Source: Patescibacteria group bacterium
Lineage (GTDB): Bacteria; Patescibacteriota; Patescibacteriia; Patescibacteriales; JAQTRU01
DNA length: 64,000 nt
Reading direction: 5' to 3'
Assembly (NCBI GenBank): GCA_041645555.1
Contig: JBAZPX010000003.1
Span: 599 to 64,598 of the forward strand
A model generated the notes under the pieces. It was given only the letters and a program-made list of their open reading frames with translations, searched no databases and was not told where the DNA came from. Positions 15,026 through 22,729 of this stretch are shown piece after piece. Position 1 is the stretch's first letter. Every line of letters starts with the position of its first letter. Made by a program: the position numbers and the translations under genes.

Positions 15026-18000
15026 ATGTTAATGCATTTCTACTCAAGAATCAGTCCCACCGAAGAGCTCTGCTATAACGTAGAAGTTGACGGCGCTTTT
15101 TCTCGTCGTCAGATTAAAAAGTTAAAGAGTTTCTTCAGGGAAAAAGGCACGGAGCATATTTTCTCCGCCAGCCGCCTAAGAGGCGACGTGGCGGAGGTGG
15201 GACCTCACCCGCAGATGCGGACAAATTTTTGTTCGCAGGCCATTGAGCTCTTGCATGACTGCGGATTGTTCAAAATTAAAATTGTGGAGGTATCACGGAG
15301 AATCGTAGTCCCGGCCGGTGTTGACCGCGACTCGTTTGTGGCGGATTTGTATGATCCGATGCGGGAACGTATTTACTATGAACCTTTGCAAAGTTTTGTG
15401 TCTAACATCGTTCCGCCTCCGGTAATAACTGTACCCCTATTGGGTGAAGGTATGGAGGCGATGGCCCGGGCTAACAAAGAATATAAACTCGGGTTTGATT
15501 CGCAGTTTCAAGAACATTTCTTCAATTTGTTTGTGAATTACCTCAAACGCAATCCGACTAACGCCGAACTTATTCAGTTAGCGGCAATGTGCTCAAACCA
15601 TTCGTTTCACACCTTATTCGGAGCAGTGGTGAGTATCGACGGCCAACGGATGGCGCACACCTTGATGGAGCTTATCAAAGAGCCCTGGCGCCGGAATCCT
15701 GGCAACAGTGTCGTTGCTTTTCATGACAATGCTAGTGCAATTAGGGGAGCTATGGCGCGCATATTGCAGCCGGAAAATCCTGGGCAACCTAGCCGGATGA
15801 TTTTTCAGGAAGCTTTATGGCACATCTCCACAACCGTGGAAACGCATTGTTACCCCACGCTCTGGTGCCCCTGGCCAGGAGCGCAAACCGGTATTGGTGG
15901 CTGTTTGCGCGACGGACTGGCTATTGGTCGCGGTGGTGATCATCGCCATGCCATTGCCGGATTCTACACGGGCAACTTATTTATCGATGATTACCCCATG
16001 CCCTGGGAAATAGGAGCGCCAATGTTTCCTTCAAGGGTAATGGCGTCTCCGCTTCGGATTATCAAAGACGCGACTTGGGGAACTTGGGCCTATGGCAACC
16101 AGTATGGTGTTCCGGTAACTCAGGGAGTCGCCCGGACGTTTGGCATGATTTTCCCCAGCGGAGAACATTACGAGTATTACAAGCCAATTATGATGGCCGG
16201 ACTTCATGGCGGTGTTCGCGATGAGCATGCTGCCAAAGGCAAAGCCAGCAAGGGATTGACAATCGTTGGAATCGGCGGACCAGGATACCGGATTGGTTAT
16301 TTCGGCGGTCCTGGTTCAAGCGAGATAACCGATGAAGCAAAGGAAGTTTCTGATCGTAATGCTGTACAACGCGGCGACTCTCTAATGGGTCAGGTAACCT
16401 GGCGGGTTATTCGGGCCTGTACCGAACTCGGCTCCAGAAATCCGATTATTTCAATCCATGACCAGGGCGCGGTCGGACCTTGCGGGGTTCTTACCGAACT
16501 CATCGAGAAGTCTGGCGGACGCATCAGCATCCGCAAGATCCATTTGGGTGATTCGACTTTGTCGTTTGTGGAGATATGGGTTTGCGAATACCAGGAAAGA
16601 TACGGTCTTCTTATCCATCCGGATGATCTTGATCTCTTTATCTCCATCTGCGACTATGAAGGTTGCCCGGTTGAGATTTTGGGCGAAGTCACAGGCGACG
16701 GCAATATTGTCGTTTATGACGAACTCGATGGTTCAACACCCATTGATTTTCCAATCGAGGCCGCGCGGGCCGGATTACCGCAAAAGGTTATTACCGATAA
16801 GGCTCCGGCTTATTTGGGCGGTCCGATTACTATTCCTGGAAACCTGACGCTGTCCGAAGCTCTTGACTGGGTAATGAAATTTCCGCATGTCGGGAGCAAG
16901 GACTGGCTCGTAGACCGGGTAGACACTACGGTCGGCGGTCTGGTTGTCCAAAACCAGCGTTGCGGTCCGCATCGCTTGCCATTATCCAATGTGGCAGTGT
17001 CGGCTTTAGACTTTTTGGGCAAAATCGGAAGCGTTACGGCTTTGGGCGAATGTCCGCCGAAGATGATGCTTAATCCTCGGGCCGGCGCGCGTATGGCGGT
17101 AGCGGAAATGCTTACTAATCTTGCAGCCGCTCGAATTACCAAACGTGAGGATATCAGGGCGTCTGTGAATTGGATGTGGCCGGCAAAAGGCATCCCGGGC
17201 GGCGTTGCCAAGCTTTATTATGCTATGGAAGCGTTGACCGAGTTTATGATGGCTTTAGGAATTGCCTGCGACGGCGGTAAAGATTCTACATCTTTGGCCG
17301 CTCTTATCGCCAAGATGCTTATCAAATCCCCGGAAACCTTAGTGATTACCGGGTATGCGATGGTGCCGGATTTCCGAGAAGTCGCCACGCCGAATATTAA
17401 GTCGCCGGGTCAGAGCCGATTGCTTTATATTGATTTTGGCGGCGGCAAATACCGGCTGGGCGGATCGGCTTTCCTGCAATATCTAAAACAACTTGGCGAG
17501 GAGTGTCCGGACATTGAAGACAGAGATCTGTTTGTCCGCGCCTGGGAAGCAATTCAGAGACTTCATGATATGGGCAAACTCTTATCGCTTCACGATCGCA
17601 GTTGCGGCGGGCTCTTGATTACTATTCTTGAGATGCTTTTCGCCGGCGATTGTGGGGCATCAGTTAGTCTTAAGGGCGCCGATATCTGGGGCAAGATGTT
17701 TGCGGAAGAAGCCGGGTTTGTTTTGGAAATTCATGAAGATGATCTCCCGGACGTGCTGGCGTTGTTTGAAAAATGCGATGTGCCGGTAGTTGAAATCGGC
17801 CGGACAAAGGTTGAGAAAACCGTTAAGGTCGCTTTCAACAACGAAATCGTTCTGGCCGGATCAGTTCCGGAACTGCGGAGCGCTCATCGGGAAACAAGCC
17901 ACCAGATTGACCGGCTGCAAATCAACCCGGTTTGCGCAGACCAAGCCAAGCAAAATTTGCTTGATCCCGGAATCCCGTCCCTGGAACTTACTTTCACTCC

Positions 18001-18832
18001 CAGACCAACACCCCGGGAAATTTTAGAAGGAGGATTAAAGCCGCGGGTGGCGGTTTTGCGCAACAAGGGAACGAATGGAGACCGGGAAATGATTGCCGCT
18101 TTCAAGGCAGTCGGCTTCGAGGTTTACGACGTGCACATGAAAGCTCTGATTACCGGGCAGATAACCCTTGATTTCTTCCAGGGCATTGTTTTCGCCGGCG
18201 GATTTTCCTTTGCCGATATTTTCGGCGCTGGCAAGGGTTGGGCGATGCAGGTTCGGGAATGCCTGGCCGGGCAACTCAAAAAATTCATGGCTAGGCCCAA
18301 TACCTGGATTCTCGGGGTCTGCAATGGTTGTCAGGCTGGCGCGCTCTTGGGCTTAGCGCCATTCGAGAAGCTTGACCGTAAACGGCAGCCGCTTTTCCTC
18401 AGGAATACGTCGAGAGCATTTGAATCTCGATCAGTCGAAGTCGGGATACTGAAAAGCCCTTCGATCATGTTCACGGATATGGCCGGCTCGCGTCTTACTA
18501 TTCCGGTAGCGCATGGAGAAGGACGGATGTGGTTCCCGGATGAGGGAGCGATCCGCGAAGTGGCGGAAAATTATCTCGCTACTATGGCGTTCGTTGACAA
18601 CTCTGGCAGCCCGACCATGGATTATCCCCTTAATCCGAACGGTTCGGTTTATGGCTGGACTGGCCTCTGTGATCCTACGGGCCGGTTTAATCTTATGATG
18701 CCGCATCCGGAACGGATCTTTCTTCTGCAACAATGGCCGTGGCTGCCGCAAGGATGGGATGACCTTCTGGCCTCTCCGTGGATTCGGCTATTCCAGAATT
18801 TTTACGCGTTCTCGGTCGCGCATTGTGATTAA
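15026..18832 (+). CDS. purL: phosphoribosylformylglycinamidine (FGAM) synthase, large single-chain PurL type, divergent
   Basis: About 1268 aa from the ATG at 15026 (GGGAGA 6 nt upstream). It is collinear with E. coli PurL as I remember it. The C-terminal glutaminase motifs are intact: GVCNGCQ, HGEG, MMPHPER. Several synthetase-domain motifs are altered (SNHSFHTLF, ETHCYPT). Confidence 0.85.
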   Translation: MLMHFYSRISPTEELCYNVEVDGAFSRRQIKKLKSFFREKGTEHIFSASRLRGDVAEVGPHPQMRTNFCSQAIELLHDCGLFKIKIVEVSRRIVVPAGVDRDSFVADLYDPMRERIYYEPLQSFVSNIVPPPVITVPLLGEGMEAMARANKEYKLGFDSQFQEHFFNLFVNYLKRNPTNAELIQLAAMCSNHSFHTLFGAVVSIDGQRMAHTLMELIKEPWRRNPGNSVVAFHDNASAIRGAMARILQPENPGQPSRMIFQEALWHISTTVETHCYPTLWCPWPGAQTGIGGCLRDGLAIGRGGDHRHAIAGFYTGNLFIDDYPMPWEIGAPMFPSRVMASPLRIIKDATWGTWAYGNQYGVPVTQGVARTFGMIFPSGEHYEYYKPIMMAGLHGGVRDEHAAKGKASKGLTIVGIGGPGYRIGYFGGPGSSEITDEAKEVSDRNAVQRGDSLMGQVTWRVIRACTELGSRNPIISIHDQGAVGPCGVLTELIEKSGGRISIRKIHLGDSTLSFVEIWVCEYQERYGLLIHPDDLDLFISICDYEGCPVEILGEVTGDGNIVVYDELDGSTPIDFPIEAARAGLPQKVITDKAPAYLGGPITIPGNLTLSEALDWVMKFPHVGSKDWLVDRVDTTVGGLVVQNQRCGPHRLPLSNVAVSALDFLGKIGSVTALGECPPKMMLNPRAGARMAVAEMLTNLAAARITKREDIRASVNWMWPAKGIPGGVAKLYYAMEALTEFMMALGIACDGGKDSTSLAALIAKMLIKSPETLVITGYAMVPDFREVATPNIKSPGQSRLLYIDFGGGKYRLGGSAFLQYLKQLGEECPDIEDRDLFVRAWEAIQRLHDMGKLLSLHDRSCGGLLITILEMLFAGDCGASVSLKGADIWGKMFAEEAGFVLEIHEDDLPDVLALFEKCDVPVVEIGRTKVEKTVKVAFNNEIVLAGSVPELRSAHRETSHQIDRLQINPVCADQAKQNLLDPGIPSLELTFTPRPTPREILEGGLKPRVAVLRNKGTNGDREMIAAFKAVGFEVYDVHMKALITGQITLDFFQGIVFAGGFSFADIFGAGKGWAMQVRECLAGQLKKFMARPNTWILGVCNGCQAGALLGLAPFEKLDRKRQPLFLRNTSRAFESRSVEVGILKSPSIMFTDMAGSRLTIPVAHGEGRMWFPDEGAIREVAENYLATMAFVDNSGSPTMDYPLNPNGSVYGWTGLCDPTGRFNLMMPHPERIFLLQQWPWLPQGWDDLLASPWIRLFQNFYAFSVAHCD

Positions 18833-18859
18833 GAATTGATCTTTTTTAAACATGAAATA

Positions 18860-18897
18860 ACCCGCTAGACTTAGAGGAACTAGCGGGTTTTGTTTTT
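18860..18897 (+). terminator. intrinsic terminator of the PurL-like gene
   Basis: ACCCGCTAG / CTAGCGGGT stem followed by TTTTGTTTTT. Confidence 0.7.
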
Positions 18898-19094
18898 AAG
18901 TGAAGTTTAAGCGGGCTAATGCCCGCACTATCTTCACATCCCGCTGCTTCCAAAAAATTTGTTTAATTTTTAAAAGTTTTTTCAAGAAGTAGCGGCTTCG
19001 CCTTTCTTTCGGCTGCTTTAAAAGTTTTAATTCGCCGAAGCAGCGGGATATACCGGTCCGCCCCGCCCATTGCGAGGAGCGTGGCGGCTTTCGG

Positions 19095-19148
19095 TATAAA
19101 AAAAGAGGCTCGGCTAAACGTGATTGAGTTATCACGCTTAACCGAGCC
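19095..19148 (-). terminator. strong intrinsic terminator ending the small-ORF operon
   Basis: An 18-bp stem (19148-19131 with 19124-19107) that is complete only on the minus-strand RNA, where two positions are G-U pairs (they are C-A mismatches on the plus strand). Followed by TCTTTTTTT. Confidence 0.7.
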
Positions 19149-19153
19149 AAAAG

Positions 19154-19186
19154 TTACCACCAGTCGTCCCAGCTCCAGCCGCCCAT
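19154..19186 (-). CDS. 10-codon Trp-rich micro-ORF MGGWSWDDWW
   Basis: ATGGGCGGCTGGAGCTGGGACGACTGGTGGTAA. Its ATG starts 1 nt after the upstream ORF stop (GAGGTATAAAATG), which suggests translational coupling. A terminator follows immediately. Confidence 0.35.
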   Translation of the reverse strand: MGGWSWDDWW

Positions 19187-19187
19187 T

Positions 19188-19343
19188 TTATACCTCTGCC
19201 GTTTCGGTTTCGGGTTCAGACAGTATCTGTCGTGCCACGAGGAGTATTCTCCCTGCCTTTTTTGGGAAAGCTTGGAGAACTCTTTCTATCTGTTCCATCG
19301 CTAGTTCCTCGGGCGTTAGCGGTTTTTCATTTTTTTTAGCCAT
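19188..19343 (-). CDS. 51-aa small helical protein
   Basis: MAKKNEKPLTPEELAMEQIERVLQAFPKKAGRILLVARQILSEPETETAEV. AGAGGAAAC lies 4 nt upstream of the ATG. This is the internal start of track ORF 19188-19418. Confidence 0.5.
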   Translation of the reverse strand: MAKKNEKPLTPEELAMEQIERVLQAFPKKAGRILLVARQILSEPETETAEV

Positions 19344-19377
19344 TTTGTTTCCTCTTTCTGCGGTGATATTTGTTTTT

Positions 19378-19557
19378 TTACCATTTTCCCCAAGGGCCGG
19401 GTCCCATCCTGCCGACAAAACCTTTTCTGTCTTGATGATCCAGGTTTTCCCCTGTTGCCTTTACGGAATTCGGAAATCCCGTTTCCGCTGTTTCGGCGTT
19501 TGATTGTTTTTTGTCATTTCCGGTAAAGTCAGCCGGATTTTTTTCTTGTTCAGCCAT
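19378..19557 (-). CDS. 59-aa small protein ending GPGPWGKW
   Basis: MAEQEKNPADFTGND...GRMGPGPWGKW. AAGGAGG lies 6 nt upstream of the ATG. This is the internal start of track ORF 19378-19629. Confidence 0.5.
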   Translation of the reverse strand: MAEQEKNPADFTGNDKKQSNAETAETGFPNSVKATGENLDHQDRKGFVGRMGPGPWGKW

Positions 19558-19831
19558 TGTTCCCTCCTTTTGGGTTGGCTGTTTGTTTTTAAAAAGGACG
19601 TGAAATTTTTGTGCGGTTTTCCGATACAAAAAACTGGCTCCCCTGTACGAGGAGCCAGTTTTCGTTTTCCCTAGTGAGTCTAACTTATATAGTTAAAGCA
19701 TCACAAAAAACTGATCTCCTCGTAAGACCATAAAACCAGAAACCGAAGAAATAAGTTTTTCGTAATGCCTTAGTCATAAAATATTGAGTTTACCCCGTTA
19801 GATAATATATTTAATGGGATTTTACTCTCTG
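19558..19831 (-). promoter_or_regulatory. ~270-nt leader containing an intrinsic-terminator hairpin (candidate attenuator, riboswitch or separate sRNA)
   Basis: The hairpin CTGGCTCC/GGAGCCAG (19634-19658) is followed by TTTTTTG on the minus strand. It lies between the promoter at 19838-19865 and the first small ORF. Confidence 0.35.
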
Positions 19832-19837
19832 TGGATA

Positions 19838-19865
19838 ATTATATCATAGATATTGGTAAAGTCAA
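19838..19865 (-). promoter_or_regulatory. near-consensus promoter for the small-ORF operon
   Basis: On the minus strand: TTGACT (19865-19860), 16-nt spacer, TATAAT (19843-19838). Confidence 0.55.
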
Positions 19866-19917
19866 ACGAAATGTGGATTTTTATGATTTTTATTATATAA
19901 ATTAGCTAATATTAGAT

Positions 19918-19955
19918 ATAAATTAAAAGGCAACTTGTTTTTAGCAAATTGCCTT
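19918..19955 (-). terminator. terminator after the 129-aa gene
   Basis: On the minus strand, AAGGCAA / TTGCCTT stem followed by TTAATTT. Confidence 0.5.
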
Positions 19956-19976
19956 TATTTCCCAAATTTTTGCATT

Positions 19977-20366
19977 TCAGGCCGTTAAGTCCTGAAAGCA
20001 GTTGAGCATGGCCTTAGCTAAAGCCATATGGGAGTTGGTTGGGTGTTTTCCACCTCTTTTGCAGCTTCGGCCATCTCCATTTGAGCCAATCCGGATATGG
20101 GCGTGAGCTTTACATCCGCCTTTATAAGGCGAGTTAGCTCCGCAAGAAAGAAGAACTATTTCCTGGCCATCGCCTAAGACAGGGGCGCAAGAAACAAACA
20201 TTTCTCTTATTGCCCTGAATATGGCATGATGGACATTTTCTTTTCCCTGGCTAGCGCAGGCAACCTTTTTTTCGCCCGCTGAAGTGGCGAAAACCAGGGT
20301 AGCAGTCGGAACCATTTCCGTCCCATCTGATACCTGCACAGTTTTTACGGCGAGATTAGCAATCAT
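19977..20366 (-). CDS. stand-alone LeuA/CimA allosteric (LeuA_dimer-like) domain protein, Cys-rich
   Basis: 129-aa ORF. VKTVQVSDGTEMVPTATLVF...ASQGKENVHHAIFRAI and ...GGKHPTNSHMALAKAMLNCF parallel the two halves of the isopropylmalate/citramalate synthase regulatory domain as I remember it. Confidence 0.55.
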   Translation of the reverse strand: MIANLAVKTVQVSDGTEMVPTATLVFATSAGEKKVACASQGKENVHHAIFRAIREMFVSCAPVLGDGQEIVLLSCGANSPYKGGCKAHAHIRIGSNGDGRSCKRGGKHPTNSHMALAKAMLNCFQDLTA

Positions 20367-20379
20367 TTTTTTTCCTTGT

Positions 20380-20511
20380 TTAGAGATCCATTATGCCGAC
20401 GAAGGTTATTTCTTCCCCATTCCACCAAGTCAATTTTTCATCAGGGCTGGGGCTTTTAGGCGGTTCGTTTTCTTGGCCATCCGTTCCCGGTTTTTTCTCG
20501 TCTTCTTTCAT
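20380..20511 (-). CDS. 43-aa acidic small protein with a WW motif
   Basis: MKEDEKKPGTDGQENEPPKSPSPDEKLTWWNGEEITFVGIMDL. AAGGAGG lies 6 nt upstream. The ORF ends 13 nt before the 129-aa gene. It is below the track length cutoff. Confidence 0.45.
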   Translation of the reverse strand: MKEDEKKPGTDGQENEPPKSPSPDEKLTWWNGEEITFVGIMDL

Positions 20512-20739
20512 CTTGCGCCTCCTTGGTTATGGATAATTGTGCGGTTGCATACTTCGTAATGAACAATCAAAAAAACCACCCCATTTGGGTGGCTTTCCTA
20601 TAATATTATTTATAATTCTATTTATCTTTTATCTGTACGAAAACAAGCCACCCGAGAGGGAAGTAAGAGCAACAATCCTAACAGCAAATTTTTTTGGATA
20701 ACTTGTTTCATATTGTTAAAACCAGTATAGCATGCCCAG

Positions 20740-20781
20740 AAAAAAAAGCAACCCCCTTGCAAAATAAATTTTACAAGGGGG
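20740..20781 (-). terminator. intrinsic terminator of the citramalate-synthase-like gene
   Basis: On the minus strand, CCCCCTTG / CAAGGGGG stem followed by TTGCTTTTTTTT. Confidence 0.65.
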
Positions 20782-20790
20782 TTTTTATAG

Positions 20791-22353
20791 TTATTCTTTT
20801 CCCTCCTTTTCTTTTTCTTTAACAATTCGGTAAAGATAGGCATCCCAAAGAACTTCCCAGCTAGCTTCTTGGAAATCAGCATTAACACCGATGACAGTCC
20901 AGGATTCGTGCTCATCAGTAAAAGTAGCGATTACCCTGACTTTAGCCGCGGTGTCAAGTTCGAGATTAAAGACTTCCATCTTGAAATCAGCCAGCTTTAC
21001 TTCTTCTAAGAAAGAAAAATAAGGAAGTAAAGCTCGGCGCAGAGCCTGGTTTAGGCCGTCAACTCCGCCTGCTCCCTCGGCGTTAACCAGCTCTTTTTTA
21101 CCATCTACAAATATGGTTAGGCTGGCTTCACTTTGGACTGGTTGCCGGCGGATTTTTTCATCCCATGTTCTCCATTTTTCGAATCTAGGAAGGAGCGGAA
21201 GTTTTCCTAATTTTCCCAGGAGCCACAGATAAAGAGATGCCCGAGCCTGTCCCAAATCTTTGCCCTCGTCGCAGAACCGGTTAAAATCAGCCATGAATTC
21301 TTTGGCTAATTTTTTGGTGATAACCAGGCCAAGCTCTTTTGCCACTTGCACTAAAGTAGAAGCTCCGGAGCCTTTCCCCAGTTCGGTTCTTTTCTTGTTG
21401 CCGACAAATTTTGGGGGAGCATGGAGGTAGCTGCCAGGGTCCCTGGCAAGGCCATCTGAATGCATGCCAACTTTAGTAGCGAAGGCATTTTCTCCTACCC
21501 AGGGTTCAGACGGGTTTGGCTTGATGTTTAACGCCCGGCAGACGAGGAGATAGACAGAGCAAAGCTTTCGCAGGGAGTTAAGGGGAAAATTGTTTATTCC
21601 CCGCTCTTTCCAAACTAGGTTAGGAAGAAACGTAGTTATGGCTGCGTTGCCGGCTCTCTCACCGATGGTGCCGATCGTTCCCTGAATATGGCTTACGCCT
21701 AACCTCCAAGCTAGTTCAGATAGAGCCGAAGCTCTTCCTTGGTCATTGTGAAAATGGACGCCAAGCCGTTCCAGGGGAATGATTTTTGAAACCTCGGTGA
21801 TTACTTGTTCAACTTGATCAAAATCCATTCCACCGTTGGTGTCGCAGAGGACTATCCAACTTACCCCGGATTCGGCCGCGGTCTGAAGAATTTTTTGGGC
21901 ATAGTCTCTGTCACCATTTAACCAGGCGTCAAAAGCATGTTCGGCGTCAAAGATTACTTCTAATCCAGCCTCTACCAAAGTTCTTATCGAATCCCCGATA
22001 ACCCGGAGATAATCATCCGGATCCTGCCTTAATGATTTTTCCACATCCCGCCGACGGGTTTTGCCAACCAAGACGCCAACTGGAACCCCGAGCTTTATGA
22101 TGTTTTTTACATCATTCGGATGAGTTCGGCCAAAAACGGCAATCTTAGCTTTTAGTTTCAAAACTAGCGCTTTCTTGACAATTTCCTGGGTACTATTATG
22201 GAGATCTGCAAAACCTAATTCCAGGTACTTGACGCCTAATTTAGAAATCGCAGAAGCCGCTTTTAAAACATCAGCGGTGTTAGTTATTTCTGCTTCCATC
22301 CCTTGGGCGCCGTCCCGAAAAGTCGTGTCCAAAACTACTAATTTCCTTCCCAT
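20791..22353 (-). CDS. cimA: citramalate synthase / 2-isopropylmalate synthase family protein (CimA-like)
   Basis: 520-aa ORF. The N-terminal DTTFRDGAQG motif and HFHNDQG indicate a DRE-TIM aldolase. The C-terminal regulatory domain shows EGAGGVDGLNQALRRAL. The RDGAQ variant fits the citramalate-synthase subgroup as I recall it. Confidence 0.8.
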   Translation of the reverse strand: MGRKLVVLDTTFRDGAQGMEAEITNTADVLKAASAISKLGVKYLELGFADLHNSTQEIVKKALVLKLKAKIAVFGRTHPNDVKNIIKLGVPVGVLVGKTRRRDVEKSLRQDPDDYLRVIGDSIRTLVEAGLEVIFDAEHAFDAWLNGDRDYAQKILQTAAESGVSWIVLCDTNGGMDFDQVEQVITEVSKIIPLERLGVHFHNDQGRASALSELAWRLGVSHIQGTIGTIGERAGNAAITTFLPNLVWKERGINNFPLNSLRKLCSVYLLVCRALNIKPNPSEPWVGENAFATKVGMHSDGLARDPGSYLHAPPKFVGNKKRTELGKGSGASTLVQVAKELGLVITKKLAKEFMADFNRFCDEGKDLGQARASLYLWLLGKLGKLPLLPRFEKWRTWDEKIRRQPVQSEASLTIFVDGKKELVNAEGAGGVDGLNQALRRALLPYFSFLEEVKLADFKMEVFNLELDTAAKVRVIATFTDEHESWTVIGVNADFQEASWEVLWDAYLYRIVKEKEKEGKE

Positions 22354-22729
22354 CTTTTACCTCCGTTGATGGTTGCGGTTTTTATCTGTTAAGAAACATT
22401 TTTCAAAGAGCCAAAAAATAGACTAAACAAAAAATCGCCTTGCTTTGAAGACGATTTTTTGACGATTTTTATTTTAATATTTTGTTTATTCTAATTTTGC
22501 CTTCAAAGCACAATAAAAGTGATTATCAATAATGATAATCCCGATAATGCCAATAATAACTATTGTGCCTTGGATTAGATTCATATTATTATTTTTATCT
22601 TAAAGGATTATTTTTAATTTGTCAAATGCTTTATAAAATTAGGCAAATTCGGCTTTCCCGCTAATTTGCCAAAAGCCTTTAAATAATATAGAATAAAGAT
22701 ATATTTACTATATTATTTACAAAAATTAT

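What the first reader, a model, noticed from the sequence alone, without database searches (positions are those of the whole stretch)
19095..19865. Promoter-leader-terminator unit followed by three translationally linked tiny ORFs ending in MGGWSWDDWW
On the minus strand the order is:
1. TTGACT-16-TATAAT (19865-19838).
2. A ~270-nt leader containing a full intrinsic terminator (CTGGCTCC/GGAGCCAG followed by a T-run, 19658-19626).
3. A 59-aa ORF with a perfect AAGGAGG site, ending GPGPWGKW.
4. A 51-aa helical ORF.
5. One nt after its stop (GAGGTATAAAATG), a 10-codon ORF, MGGWSWDDWW, with 4 Trp in 10 codons.
6. An 18-bp terminator whose two non-Watson-Crick pairs are G-U only on the minus-strand RNA.

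The 140-aa plus-strand ORF in the track overlaps all of this and lacks comparable signals.

Possible readings:
- a conditionally terminated (riboswitch- or attenuator-controlled) small-protein operon;
- a precursor-peptide locus, since Trp-rich C-termini are typical of several modified-peptide families, although no modifying enzyme is obvious;
- a Trp-sensing leader whose read-through would run antisense into the convergent PurL-like gene.

A second Trp-pair micro-protein (..LTWWNGEE.., 20511-20380) heads the neighbouring operon.
Basis: partly seen in the sequence, partly recalled or inferred. Interest (0 to 1): 0.6.

Follow-up and report, generated by a model that had tools for sequence, protein, structure and literature searches.

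The report
Aromatic amino-acid attenuator before tiny genes
The supposed leader is a textbook-style ribosome-sensing switch with a hidden 30-codon reading frame rich in phenylalanine, tyrosine and tryptophan, which decides whether three tiny downstream genes are transcribed in a small-genome groundwater bacterium that apparently cannot make these amino acids itself.

Summary

This ORF and its RNA are the conserved part of the locus, not the tiny ORFs. I count 46 of 316 genomes of the same order with a match at E<=1e-6. In 32 loci read:
- the ORF is intact in 31;
- length differences are multiples of three in 31;
- each peptide carries about 5-6 Phe, 2 Tyr and 1 Trp.

Three mutually exclusive helices (1:2, 2:3 antiterminator, 3:4 terminator) all covary. 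This is a classical leader-peptide transcription attenuator for aromatic amino acids. It is a family that Rfam does not hold, in a Patescibacteria-group lineage.

In relatives it precedes prephenate dehydratase, chorismate mutase or DAHP synthase. In this genus only the small ORFs follow. 32 of 46 attenuator-bearing genomes have no prephenate dehydratase at all.

- The 59-aa ORF belongs to a clade-restricted family of 7 proteins.
- The Trp-rich 10-codon ORF is intact in only 3 of 5 relatives, and its hairpin has no antiterminator.
- The plus-strand 140-aa ORF is spurious.
- Leu- and Ile-type attenuators on the same scaffold lie just upstream.

The parts
19838..19865 (-). Promoter: -35 TTGACT (19865-19860), 16-nt spacer with TG extension, -10 TATAAT (19843-19838)
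   Evidence: 11 of 12 matches, TG present. -35 TTGA(C/T)T and TGnTATAAT recur in the aligned loci.
19830..19838 (-). TTATCCACA directly abutting the -10. Matches the E. coli-type DnaA box consensus (consensus recalled, binding not tested).
   Evidence: Present after the -10 in 27 of 32 loci, whatever the distance to the ATG (-2 to 104 nt). In G000 the arrangement TATAA+TTATCCACA is unique among the 37 copies of the 9-mer.
19788..19822 (-). 35-nt insertion in the 5' UTR that forms a small hairpin (19818-19793). Present only in G000 and G002.
   Evidence: The alignment shows a gap in the other 10 loci. Short matches to this stretch lie at other places in relatives' genomes.
19685..19777 (-). Leader-peptide ORF, 30 codons plus stop: MTKALRKTYFFGFWFYGLTRRSVFCDALTI
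   Evidence: Intact in 31 of 32 loci. Reading phase kept in 31 of 32 across five different lengths. 260 of 985 residues are Phe, Tyr or Trp.
19754..19772 (-). Region 1: 5' arm of helix P1 (codons 3-8)
   Evidence: the P1 helix has 21 pairs, 97.8% of cells paired, and 10 pairs with changes on both sides.
19730..19753 (-). Regulatory codons Y F F G F W F Y, the proposed stall site
   Evidence: Direct reading. The aromatic core is conserved in composition but not in sequence.
19694..19723 (-). Region 2: 3' arm of P1. Its 5' half, GGAGATCAGTTTT, mimics the terminator's 3' arm and pairs with region 3 to form the antiterminator.
   Evidence: with region 1 masked and region 4 absent, region 2 pairs with region 3. 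G000 energy is -29.3 against -14.4 +/- 2.7 for shuffled region 2; 14 pairs, 85.0% paired against 40.5-56.8% when slid.
19682..19694 (-). Small hairpin P2, which holds the leader stop codon
   Evidence: Seen in the folds of relatives. Stem kept with changed letters in G027 and G005 (read by eye, not counted formally).
19663..19678 (-). Highly conserved stretch CTCACTAGGGAAAACG, unpaired in the terminated form. CTCAC pairs with the end of region 2 in the antiterminated fold.
   Evidence: Invariant columns. Folds. The invariance of GGGAAAAC is unexplained.
19620..19662 (-). Attenuator terminator: region 3 (19662-19649), loop, region 4 (19643-19628), T-run
   Evidence: 13 pairs, 91.6% paired, 9 pairs with changes on both sides.
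19378..19569 (-). AAGGAGG (19569-19563) and the 59-aa ORF (19557-19378)
   Evidence: Family alignment A2 of 5 sequences has invariant M1, F11, G13, G46, F47, W56. Only 7 proteins at E<=0.001 among 1.84 billion representatives. No Pfam family above cut-off.
19188..19343 (-). 51-aa helical ORF with AAGAGG site
   Evidence: Counterparts of 48 aa (G002) and 47 aa (G004). No Pfam. No Atlas lead. Not related to the 'GGN' small proteins of other loci (hhalign probability 0.2%).
19154..19186 (-). 10-codon ORF MGGWSWDDWW
   Evidence: Intact in G000, G002 and G003. G001 has ACG in place of ATG and only one Trp. G004 has a stop at codon 4. Trp-rich mini-ORFs occur in 3 of 32 loci, all in this genus.
19097..19148 (-). 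18-bp hairpin plus T-run: terminator of the small-ORF operon
   Evidence: The hairpin is conserved in 5 of 5 family members, but G004 has no T-run and prephenate dehydratase follows there.
19081..19503 (+). 140-aa plus-strand ORF: judged spurious
   Evidence: GTG start. No Pfam above cut-off (Tad_C 14.2 bits). It runs antisense across two ORFs, an intergenic gap and the terminator hairpin. Antisense ORFs in relatives vary from 98 to 202 aa.

Best explanation
The unit 19865-19620 (minus strand) is a classical ribosome-mediated transcription attenuator that senses the supply of charged aromatic tRNAs.

How it works:
- A strong promoter makes a leader RNA that encodes a 30-codon peptide. Its middle is a run of Phe, Tyr and Trp codons.
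- When these codons are read quickly, the ribosome reaches the stop codon in hairpin P2 and covers region 2, or helix 1:2 re-forms. Regions 3 and 4 then fold into the terminator and transcription ends at about 19620.
- When the ribosome stalls on the aromatic codons (19753-19730), it holds region 1. Region 2 (GGAGAUCAGUUUU...) pairs with region 3 (AAAACUGGCUCC), so the terminator cannot form. Transcription then runs into the 59-aa, 51-aa and 10-codon ORFs and stops at the 18-bp terminator (19148-19097).

Shown by computation: the ORF, its codon phase, the three alternative helices and their covariation, and the link to aromatic-pathway genes in relatives.

Inferred: the stalling, the direction of the switch, and that the small ORFs are translated.

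In this genus the aromatic-pathway gene that follows the same small ORFs in the sister genus (prephenate dehydratase) is missing from the locus. The small ORFs are therefore the only cargo.
For: Conservation
- The conserved DNA across the order is the leader (window 19781-19628), not the small ORFs (17 of 41 relatives). In one search, 90 of 316 genomes match at E<=0.01. I count 46 at E<=1e-6.

Coding of the leader
- The ORF is intact in 31 of 32 loci.
- The distance from the ATG to the conserved GTGRTG motif is 70, 73, 76, 79 or 82 nt in 31 of 32. The one exception, 75 nt in G082, is the frame-shifted locus.

Regulatory codons
- 178 Phe, 58 Tyr and 24 Trp among 985 residues. The typical peptide has F5-6, Y2, W1.

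Structure
- The full leader folds into P1 plus terminator.
- RNAalifold gives 31 pairs, 20 with compensatory changes.
- P1 plus terminator: 34 pairs, 95.5% of cells paired against 43.5-60.3% when slid, 19 pairs changed on both sides, and 0 of 500 shuffles reach any of the five measures.
- Antiterminator 2:3: 14 pairs, 85.0% paired against 40.5-56.8% when slid, and 24 cells with double changes (0 of 500 shuffles reach this).
- Column 96 covaries with column 36 (UA 17, CG 10) and with column 166 (AU 12, GC 11). Column 166 covaries with column 190 (UA 13, CG 12).
- With region 1 masked and region 4 not yet made, region 2 pairs with at least 8 nt of region 3 in 26 of 32 loci. The mean z against shuffled region 2 is -4.3.

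Cognate genes downstream in relatives
- Pfam finds PDT (G004, G136), PDH_N (G136), CM_2 (G068) and DAHP_synth_1 (G307, G033, G066, G022).
- Of the 14 attenuator genomes that have a PDT, 8 have it within about 2 kb downstream on the same strand (coordinates).

Paralogues on the same scaffold
- Leu-rich and Ile-rich leaders lie in this window. The Leu type is followed by leuA-like genes in G003, G010 and G143. A Val-rich leader occurs in G006, G057 and G060.
Against: - There is no transcript or ribosome data. No RNA run holds the stretch.
- No Shine-Dalgarno sequence precedes the leader ATG in G000 or in most relatives, although the downstream ORFs have strong ones.
- At equilibrium, with region 1 masked, the full-length RNA still prefers the terminator. 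The switch must therefore be kinetic, as in known attenuators, and this is assumed.
- In 12 of 32 truncated leaders the antiterminator is already the minimum-energy fold without masking.
- For the antiterminator, the count of pairs with double changes is reached by 42 of 500 shuffles, and alignment A1 is out of register for some terminators.
- In G000 no aromatic-pathway gene lies downstream. Its only PDT is on another contig.
- 32 of 46 attenuator genomes have no PDT, and chorismate synthase was found in 0 of 11 genomes examined. The classical logic of 'make more of the missing amino acid' therefore does not hold here.
- The Rfam Phe_leader model scores only 22.3 bits against a gathering score of 55.
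Confidence: 0.8

Rival explanations
1. The promoter-to-terminator unit is mainly a stand-alone small RNA, or a dual-function RNA and peptide, that acts in trans. The attenuator-derived rnTrpL/peTrpL of Sinorhizobium works this way. Read-through into the small ORFs would then be secondary. This does not exclude the attenuator mechanism.
For: - It has its own strong promoter and terminator.
- It is kept in 32 of 46 genomes that lack PDT, and in genomes lacking DAHP synthase.
- An invariant stretch, CUCACUAGGGAAAAC, is unpaired in the terminated form and is only partly explained by the switch.
- A precedent exists: PMC6614838 and PMC7298713 (abstract starts seen in the listing).
Against: - No target was sought or found.
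- The helices and covariation are fully accounted for by the cis switch.
- Where PDT exists it is often directly downstream (8 of 14).
- No expression data exist.
Confidence: 0.12
2. The 30-aa ORF encodes a functional hydrophobic small protein, such as a membrane peptide or a type I toxin. The RNA hairpin would only stabilise or silence its mRNA.
For: - The ORF is conserved in 31 of 32 loci, with an aromatic, membrane-like core and charged ends.
- The mRNA is strongly folded.
Against: - Amino-acid changes at the two ends follow RNA pairing. Column pair 22-110 switches AU (27 sequences) to GC (5), which changes Thr/Val to Ala/Ala.
- The core keeps its composition (F5-6, Y2, W1), not its sequence.
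- Region 2 mimics the terminator arm and covaries with it.
- There is one copy per genome (no second copy in G000).
- No antisense promoter pairs with it.
Confidence: 0.04
3. The 10-codon Trp-rich ORF is a second, Trp-sensing leader that controls the 18-bp terminator. Read-through would run antisense into the PurL-like gene, or into pheA in relatives.
For: - 4 Trp in 10 codons, a Shine-Dalgarno-like site, and a stop codon 5 nt before the hairpin.
- The ORF is present in 3 genomes of the genus.
Against: - The ORF is broken in G001 (ACG start, one Trp) and in G004 (stop at codon 4).
- It is absent from the other 29 of 32 loci.
- No alternative pairing for the hairpin's 5' arm beyond shuffled controls in 5 of 5 genomes.
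- In G004 the hairpin has no T-run.
Confidence: 0.05
4. The small ORFs are precursors of modified peptides (RiPPs).
For: Trp-containing C-termini...VWP[RSG] in 6 of 7 family members and ...PWGKW in G000.
Against: - No modifying enzyme within the ORFs listed for 17000-22500.
- The family is restricted to 7 proteins.
- Gene content between the attenuator and the next large gene differs from genome to genome.
Confidence: 0.03
5. The leader is a ligand-binding riboswitch or a protein-bound attenuator, and the ORF is incidental.
For: The RNA is long, structured and conserved, and ends in a terminator.
Against: - No Rfam family reaches its gathering score.
- Codon phase is kept in 31 of 32 loci across five lengths.
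- The ATG is nearly invariant.
- Paralogues differ mainly in which amino acid is repeated: Phe/Tyr/Trp, Leu, Ile or Val.
Confidence: 0.03

Closest known systems
pheA attenuator with pheL leader peptide of Gammaproteobacteria (Rfam RF01859, Phe_leader)
   Same: A short ORF with a run of Phe codons, overlapping alternative hairpins and an intrinsic terminator. Prephenate dehydratase lies downstream in 8 relatives. The PMC3082878 abstract (seen in the listings) describes pheL as short, with runs of Phe codons, and controlling pheA by attenuation.
   Different: - No model match: 22.3 bits against a gathering score of 55, E 0.95.
- 30 codons, against about 15 in E. coli pheL (recalled).
- Tyr and Trp codons are kept beside Phe.
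- The ORF spans both regions 1 and 2.
- The lineage is in the Patescibacteria group.
- In G000, and in most carriers, no aromatic-pathway gene follows.
trp, leu, ilv, his and thr operon attenuators (leader-peptide attenuation in Proteobacteria, Actinobacteria and Firmicutes)
   Same: The 1:2 / 2:3 / 3:4 logic and the presence of regulatory codons. The window also holds Leu- and Ile-type units. Passages read in PMC2965389 say that leader-peptide systems were known in Proteobacteria and Actinobacteria and were then found in Firmicutes.
   Different: - Here one RNA scaffold seems to be re-used for four amino-acid types.
- The cargo is often small ORFs with no known family.
- I found no paper that joins leader peptides with Patescibacteria or the candidate phyla radiation.
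rnTrpL / peTrpL of Sinorhizobium meliloti
   Same: An attenuator whose terminated RNA and leader peptide have roles of their own (abstract starts seen).
   Different: No trans role is shown here. It is only a possible reason why the unit is kept where the pathway is gone.

Membership tests
Leader-peptide (ribosome-mediated) transcription attenuator | Short ORF in the leader, enriched in codons for the sensed amino acid | tested here: met
   30 codons with 5 Phe, 2 Tyr and 1 Trp in G000. 260 of 985 residues are aromatic across 32 loci. The ORF is intact in 31 of 32 and codon phase is kept in 31 of 32.
Leader-peptide (ribosome-mediated) transcription attenuator | Intrinsic terminator between the leader ORF and the regulated genes | tested here: met
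   Regions 3 and 4 plus T-run at 19662-19620. 13 pairs, 91.6% paired, 9 pairs with compensatory changes.
Leader-peptide (ribosome-mediated) transcription attenuator | Antiterminator (2:3) that excludes the terminator and is itself excluded by helix 1:2 | tested here: met
   85.0% paired against 40.5-56.8% when slid, and 24 double-change cells with 0 of 500 shuffles reaching this. It forms in 26 of 32 loci when region 1 is masked. Caveat: the measure 'pairs with double change' is reached by 42 of 500 shuffles.
Leader-peptide (ribosome-mediated) transcription attenuator | Regulated genes belong to the pathway of the sensed amino acid | tested here: inconclusive
   Met in relatives: PDT, CM_2, PDH_N and DAHP_synth_1 lie downstream, and 8 of 14 PDT-bearing carriers have PDT adjacent. 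Not met in G000. 32 of 46 carriers have no PDT.
Leader-peptide (ribosome-mediated) transcription attenuator | Read-through rises when the cognate charged tRNA is scarce | not testable with these tools
   No RNA run holds the stretch. The organism is uncultivated.
Rfam RF01859 Phe_leader | Score at or above the family's gathering threshold | tested here: not met
   22.3 bits against 55 at 19628-19762. Nothing at gathering level in the window except 3 tRNAs.
Riboswitch | Match to a known aptamer family, or a conserved ligand pocket without a coding constraint | tested here: not met
   No Rfam hit. A coding constraint is present.
RiPP precursor locus | A maturation enzyme encoded beside the precursor | tested here: not met
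   The ORFs of 17000-22500 are a PurL-like gene, small ORFs, a weak LeuA_dimer-like protein and an HMGL-like synthase. Only the neighbours named were scanned against Pfam.
DnaA box | 9-mer TTATNCACA (consensus recalled) that is bound by DnaA | tested here: inconclusive
   A perfect TTATCCACA follows the -10 in 27 of 32 loci. Binding is not testable here. The 14-mer that includes it also occurs by chance in coding sequence outside the order.

The most novel reading that the evidence does not exclude
In these Patescibacteria-group bacteria the attenuator has been uncoupled from biosynthesis. It would work as a stand-alone gauge of charged Phe/Tyr/Trp-tRNA that switches on lineage-specific small proteins. 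In G000 these are the 59-aa, 51-aa and perhaps the 10-codon products.

This would happen in cells that cannot make aromatic amino acids and must obtain them from outside. It would be part of a modular set of Phe-, Leu-, Ile- and Val-type gauges built on one RNA scaffold. The conserved DnaA-box-like 9-mer at the transcription start may tie it to replication.
Probability: 0.35. Interest if true: 0.75.

Novelty: new member of a known kind. Interest (0 to 1): 0.52.

Why it matters
Leader-peptide attenuation is a textbook mechanism. It has been described for amino-acid biosynthesis operons of Proteobacteria, Actinobacteria and Firmicutes (PMC2965389, passages read).

Here a well-conserved family appears in small-genome, uncultivated Patescibacteria-group bacteria. 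Four searches-worth of evidence make it unusual:
- It has Phe/Tyr/Trp, Leu, Ile and Val versions.
- It is not in Rfam.
- Many carriers lack the cognate enzymes.

If the switch is active there, it gives a direct, testable handle on how such dependent bacteria sense amino-acid starvation. It also points to a set of unknown small proteins as the response.

For annotation, it shows that the 30-codon ORFs are leader peptides and that the 140-aa antisense ORF should not be called.

Tried and rejected
- Rfam, at gathering level and at E<=10: no family fits. The best local hit, mir-186 at 32 bits, only reflects the long hairpin.
- nhmmer with the Phe-type profile against the whole genome: no second copy. 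It did not find the Leu and Ile paralogues, which are too diverged.
- A regex for M..K..QK peptides led nowhere.
- Sequencing runs: no RNA holder listed. I did not lay reads, because only DNA contigs were on offer.
- Word-index search with the 59-aa ORF: only itself. Protein Atlas with the 51-aa ORF: no usable hit.
- hhalign of the 51-aa family against the 'GGN' small proteins: probability 0.2%, so I dropped the idea that they are one family.
- The 129-aa ORF as a remnant of LeuA: no BLAST similarity to the leuA-like genes of relatives or to the adjacent synthase. Only a weak Pfam LeuA_dimer hit, 20.1 bits against a cut-off of 24.9.
- The DnaA-box cluster at G000 C4:14440-14510 as oriC: dnaA lies 67 kb away on that contig, so this stays open.
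- The 14-mer TATAATTATCCACA as a marker for the attenuator. Within the order, I count 17 of the 23 hit genomes as coinciding with BLAST-found loci. In the class sample (30 of 401 genomes with a hit), none of the 6 loci read is an attenuator, and 2 lie in a frame reading TYNYPQD. The marker is rejected outside the order, and 6 within-order hits are unverified.
- I could not see supplementary files of papers. Supplementary lists of predicted attenuators in PMC2965389 might hold related elements.
- Rows dropped: loci L001-L005 duplicate L015-L019 and were left out of the 32. L013 and L014 hold only the repeat element. Only the 30 best loci, plus the earlier ones, were read, not all 46 strong hits.
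Full report
OBSERVATION

On the minus strand I confirm the following:
- the promoter TTGACT-16-TATAAT (19865-19838; 11 of 12 matches with a TG extension);
- the hairpin CTGGCTCC/GGAGCCAG with a T-run (19662-19620);
- the 59-aa ORF with AAGGAGG (19557-19378);
- the 51-aa ORF (19343-19188);
- the 10-codon ORF MGGWSWDDWW (19186-19154), starting one base after the previous stop;
- the 18-bp terminator (19148-19107), whose two wobble pairs exist only on this strand.

Promoter-like sites in the region are no more frequent than in shuffles (4 against 3.9 +/- 2.2). Terminator-like sites are (9 against 4.0 +/- 2.2).

WHAT IS CONSERVED

The genome is 1.28 Mb in 35 contigs. A DNA search of 41 relatives matched in 17, and the shared part across families was window 19781-19628, which is the leader and not the small ORFs.

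Across all 316 genomes of the order, 90 matched at E<=0.01. I count 46 at E<=1e-6.

A close relative's record is titled a Patescibacteria group bacterium (L061). Ribosomal protein L30 was not found in G000, which is 93.7% complete. Absence of L30 as a mark of that group is recalled, not tested.

THE LEADER IS TRANSLATED

I read 32 loci: the 30 best plus earlier ones, with duplicates dropped.
- The ORF is intact in 31.
- The distance from its ATG to a conserved motif in region 2 takes five values, 70, 73, 76, 79 and 82 nt. All are in the same phase, in 31 of 32 loci. The exception (75 nt, G082) is the one frame-shifted locus.
- The peptides hold 178 Phe, 58 Tyr and 24 Trp in 985 residues, typically five or six Phe, two Tyr and one Trp. 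The order of residues in the core varies.
- The conserved N- and C-terminal residues coincide with the two arms of a long helix and change together with it. Column pair 22-110, for example, is AU in 27 sequences and GC in 5. I read this as RNA-driven conservation, not peptide-driven.

THE SWITCH

The full leader folds into helix P1 (regions 1:2) plus the terminator (3:4).

On alignment A1 these 34 pairs are 95.5% paired, against 43.5-60.3% when the partner is slid. Nineteen pairs change on both sides, and none of 500 shuffles reaches any measure.

The 5' half of region 2, GGAGAUCAGUUUU, resembles the terminator's 3' arm and can pair with region 3.
- The 14 pairs are 85.0% paired, against 40.5-56.8% when slid.
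- There are 24 double-change cells, which 0 of 500 shuffles reach.
- The weaker measure, 'pairs with a double change', is reached by 42 of 500 shuffles.

One column of region 2 (96) covaries with region 1 (column 36) and with region 3 (column 166). Column 166 in turn covaries with region 4 (column 190). This is the pattern expected of mutually exclusive helices.

When region 1 is masked, as by a stalled ribosome, and region 4 is not yet made, region 2 pairs with region 3 in 26 of 32 loci. The other six reflect my crude definition of region 3. In G000 the energy is -29.3 kcal/mol, against -14.4 +/- 2.7 for shuffled region 2.

At equilibrium the full-length RNA keeps the terminator even with region 1 masked. 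The decision must therefore be kinetic, as in known attenuators. That step is inferred.

WHAT IT CONTROLS

In relatives the genes after the terminator, usually behind one to four small ORFs, include:
- prephenate dehydratase (G004, G136);
- prephenate dehydrogenase (G136);
- chorismate mutase (G068);
- DAHP synthase (G307, G033, G066, G022);
- a DeoC-type aldolase (G294);
- an ATP-grasp protein (G034).

By reading ORFs, 11 of 32 loci have such an aromatic-pathway gene within 1.5 kb.

In the whole order PDT is present in 51 of 316 genomes. Of my 46 attenuator genomes, 14 have a PDT. In 8 of those it lies within about 2 kb downstream on the same strand: G004, G067, G068, G069, G070, G082, G136 and G311. 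The other 32 have none.

Further absences:
- Chorismate synthase was found in 0 of 11 genomes examined.
- PDT was found in 0 of 5 and DAHP synthase in 0 of 5 near-complete carriers.

G000 has one PDT, on another contig with no attenuator in front. In all four genomes of its genus the convergent PurL-like gene follows the small ORFs.

So the unit is an aromatic attenuator by design and by association. In most carriers, G000 included, it has no biosynthetic cargo.

THE THREE TINY ORFs

59-aa ORF
- It has counterparts of 59-62 aa in G001-G004, each with a Shine-Dalgarno site.
- Alignment A2 has invariant M1, F11, G13, G46, F47 and W56.
- A profile search of 1.84 billion representatives found 7 proteins. 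Six end in VWP/IWP plus one residue. G000's copy ends PWGKW.

51-aa ORF
- It has counterparts in G002 and G004 only. G001-G003 carry a different 72-78-aa ORF with a GGN motif, which is weakly related to small ORFs at other loci (hhalign probability 45%; 0.2% for the 51-aa family).
- No Pfam family fits any of them.

10-codon ORF
- It is intact in G000, G002 and G003.
- In G001 the start is ACG and one Trp is left. In G004 codon 4 is a stop.
- Elsewhere it is absent (3 of 32 loci).

The hairpin after it is conserved in all five genomes. It lacks a T-run in G004, where PDT follows. Its 5' arm has no alternative partner beyond chance.

I conclude that the 59-aa and 51-aa ORFs are probably real, clade-specific small genes of unknown role. 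The 10-codon ORF is doubtful, and it is not a Trp-sensing leader.

The plus-strand 140-aa ORF has no family. It runs antisense over two ORFs and a terminator, and its counterparts vary from 98 to 202 aa. I judge it spurious.

CONTEXT

The same strand carries two more units of the same design.
- An Ile-rich leader, MNLIQGTIVIIGIIGIIIIDNHFYCALKAKLE (22584-22486), with a terminator, lies before the HMGL-like synthase.

The Leu type matches in 41 of 316 genomes at E<=1e-4. All 20 loci read have a Leu-rich leader. In G003, G010 and G143 it is followed directly by a leuA-like gene, recognised by eye and not run through Pfam.

A Val-rich version lies about 600 nt upstream of the Phe type in G006, G057 and G060.

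COMPARISON AND NOVELTY

The mechanism is that of the pheA/pheL, trp and leu attenuators. Membership of the mechanistic class is met on four structural criteria. The cargo criterion is met in relatives but not in G000.

It is not a member of Rfam's Phe_leader (22.3 bits against 55).

Passages of PMC2965389 state that leader-peptide systems were known in Proteobacteria and Actinobacteria and were then found in Firmicutes. Two full-text searches found no paper:
- leader peptide + attenuation + Patescibacteria;
- candidate phyla radiation + leader peptide + terminator.

I therefore file it as a new member of a known kind. The bolder reading, a tRNA-charging gauge uncoupled from biosynthesis, remains open.

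UNEXPLAINED

- TTATCCACA abuts the -10 in 27 of 32 promoters, whatever the distance to the ATG.
- GGGAAAAC is invariant in the unpaired stretch.
- No Shine-Dalgarno site precedes the leader ATG.

Noticed in passing
window 20568-20745 (minus strand): A Leu-type attenuator. It has promoter-like TTGCTT-17-TATACT, the leader MKQVIQKNLLLGLLLLLPSRVACFRTDKR (20711-20622), and terminator AAAGCCACCC/GGGTGGTTTT (20600-20568). The region-2 stretch GGGTGGCTT is complementary to the terminator's 5' arm. It precedes the 43-aa (..LTWWNGEE..) and 129-aa ORFs. It matches in 41 of 316 genomes of the order and is followed by leuA-like genes in three.
   Followed up: partly
window 22420-22620 (minus strand): An Ile-type leader, MNLIQGTIVIIGIIGIIIIDNHFYCALKAKLE (22584-22486), after TTGACA-17-TAAGAT and before a terminator and the 520-aa HMGL-like/LeuA_dimer synthase (22353-20791). 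I did not work out an antiterminator.
   Followed up: partly
L007:2188-2345, L032:2194-2353, L039:747-904: A Val-rich leader, MKSIKLQNTYFLRALILVVVVVGLWEISLL, with its own terminator, about 600 nt upstream of the Phe-type unit in three genomes of another family.
   Followed up: partly
window 19830-19838 and the same place in 27 of 32 loci: TTATCCACA (DnaA-box consensus by recall) directly after the -10. G000 has 37 copies of the 9-mer, against 12 of the backwards control. Three boxes cluster at G000 C4:14440-14510, but dnaA is 67 kb away.
   Followed up: partly
window 19050-19103: A repeat element that starts right after the 18-bp terminator (TATACCGAAAGCCGCC...). It has copies at G000 C11:479-532 and C9:15031-15081. 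In G001 a copy lies directly after the attenuator terminator.
   Followed up: no
window 19788-19822: A 35-nt hairpin-forming insertion in the 5' UTR of G000 and G002 only. Similar short stretches occur at several other loci in relatives such as G016, G124 and G294-G296. It looks like a tiny mobile repeat.
   Followed up: no
whole genomes G000-G006, G033, G066, G068, G136, G307: Chorismate synthase was found in none of the 11 genomes examined, though some carry DAHP synthase, chorismate mutase or prephenate dehydratase behind the attenuator. These are partial aromatic pathways.
   Followed up: partly
loci L006, L007, L012, L028, L032, L033, L036, L039 downstream of the attenuator: Recurrent 47-67-aa helical ORFs with a ..GGN(T)KK.. 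motif and no Pfam family. Several loci also carry small Cys-rich (CxxC) ORFs. The cargo differs strongly between families.
   Followed up: partly
loci L008, L029, L033, L034, L036: In five loci the leader ATG follows the 9-mer within about 1 nt (TTATCCACATATG), so the leader mRNA would be nearly leaderless.
   Followed up: no
window 19977-20366 (minus strand): A 129-aa ORF with only a weak LeuA_dimer match (20.1 bits, cut-off 24.9). It is conserved at 53-83% identity in G001, G002 and G004. It shows no BLAST similarity to the leuA-like genes of relatives. It may be a stand-alone regulatory-domain protein under the Leu-type attenuator.
   Followed up: partly
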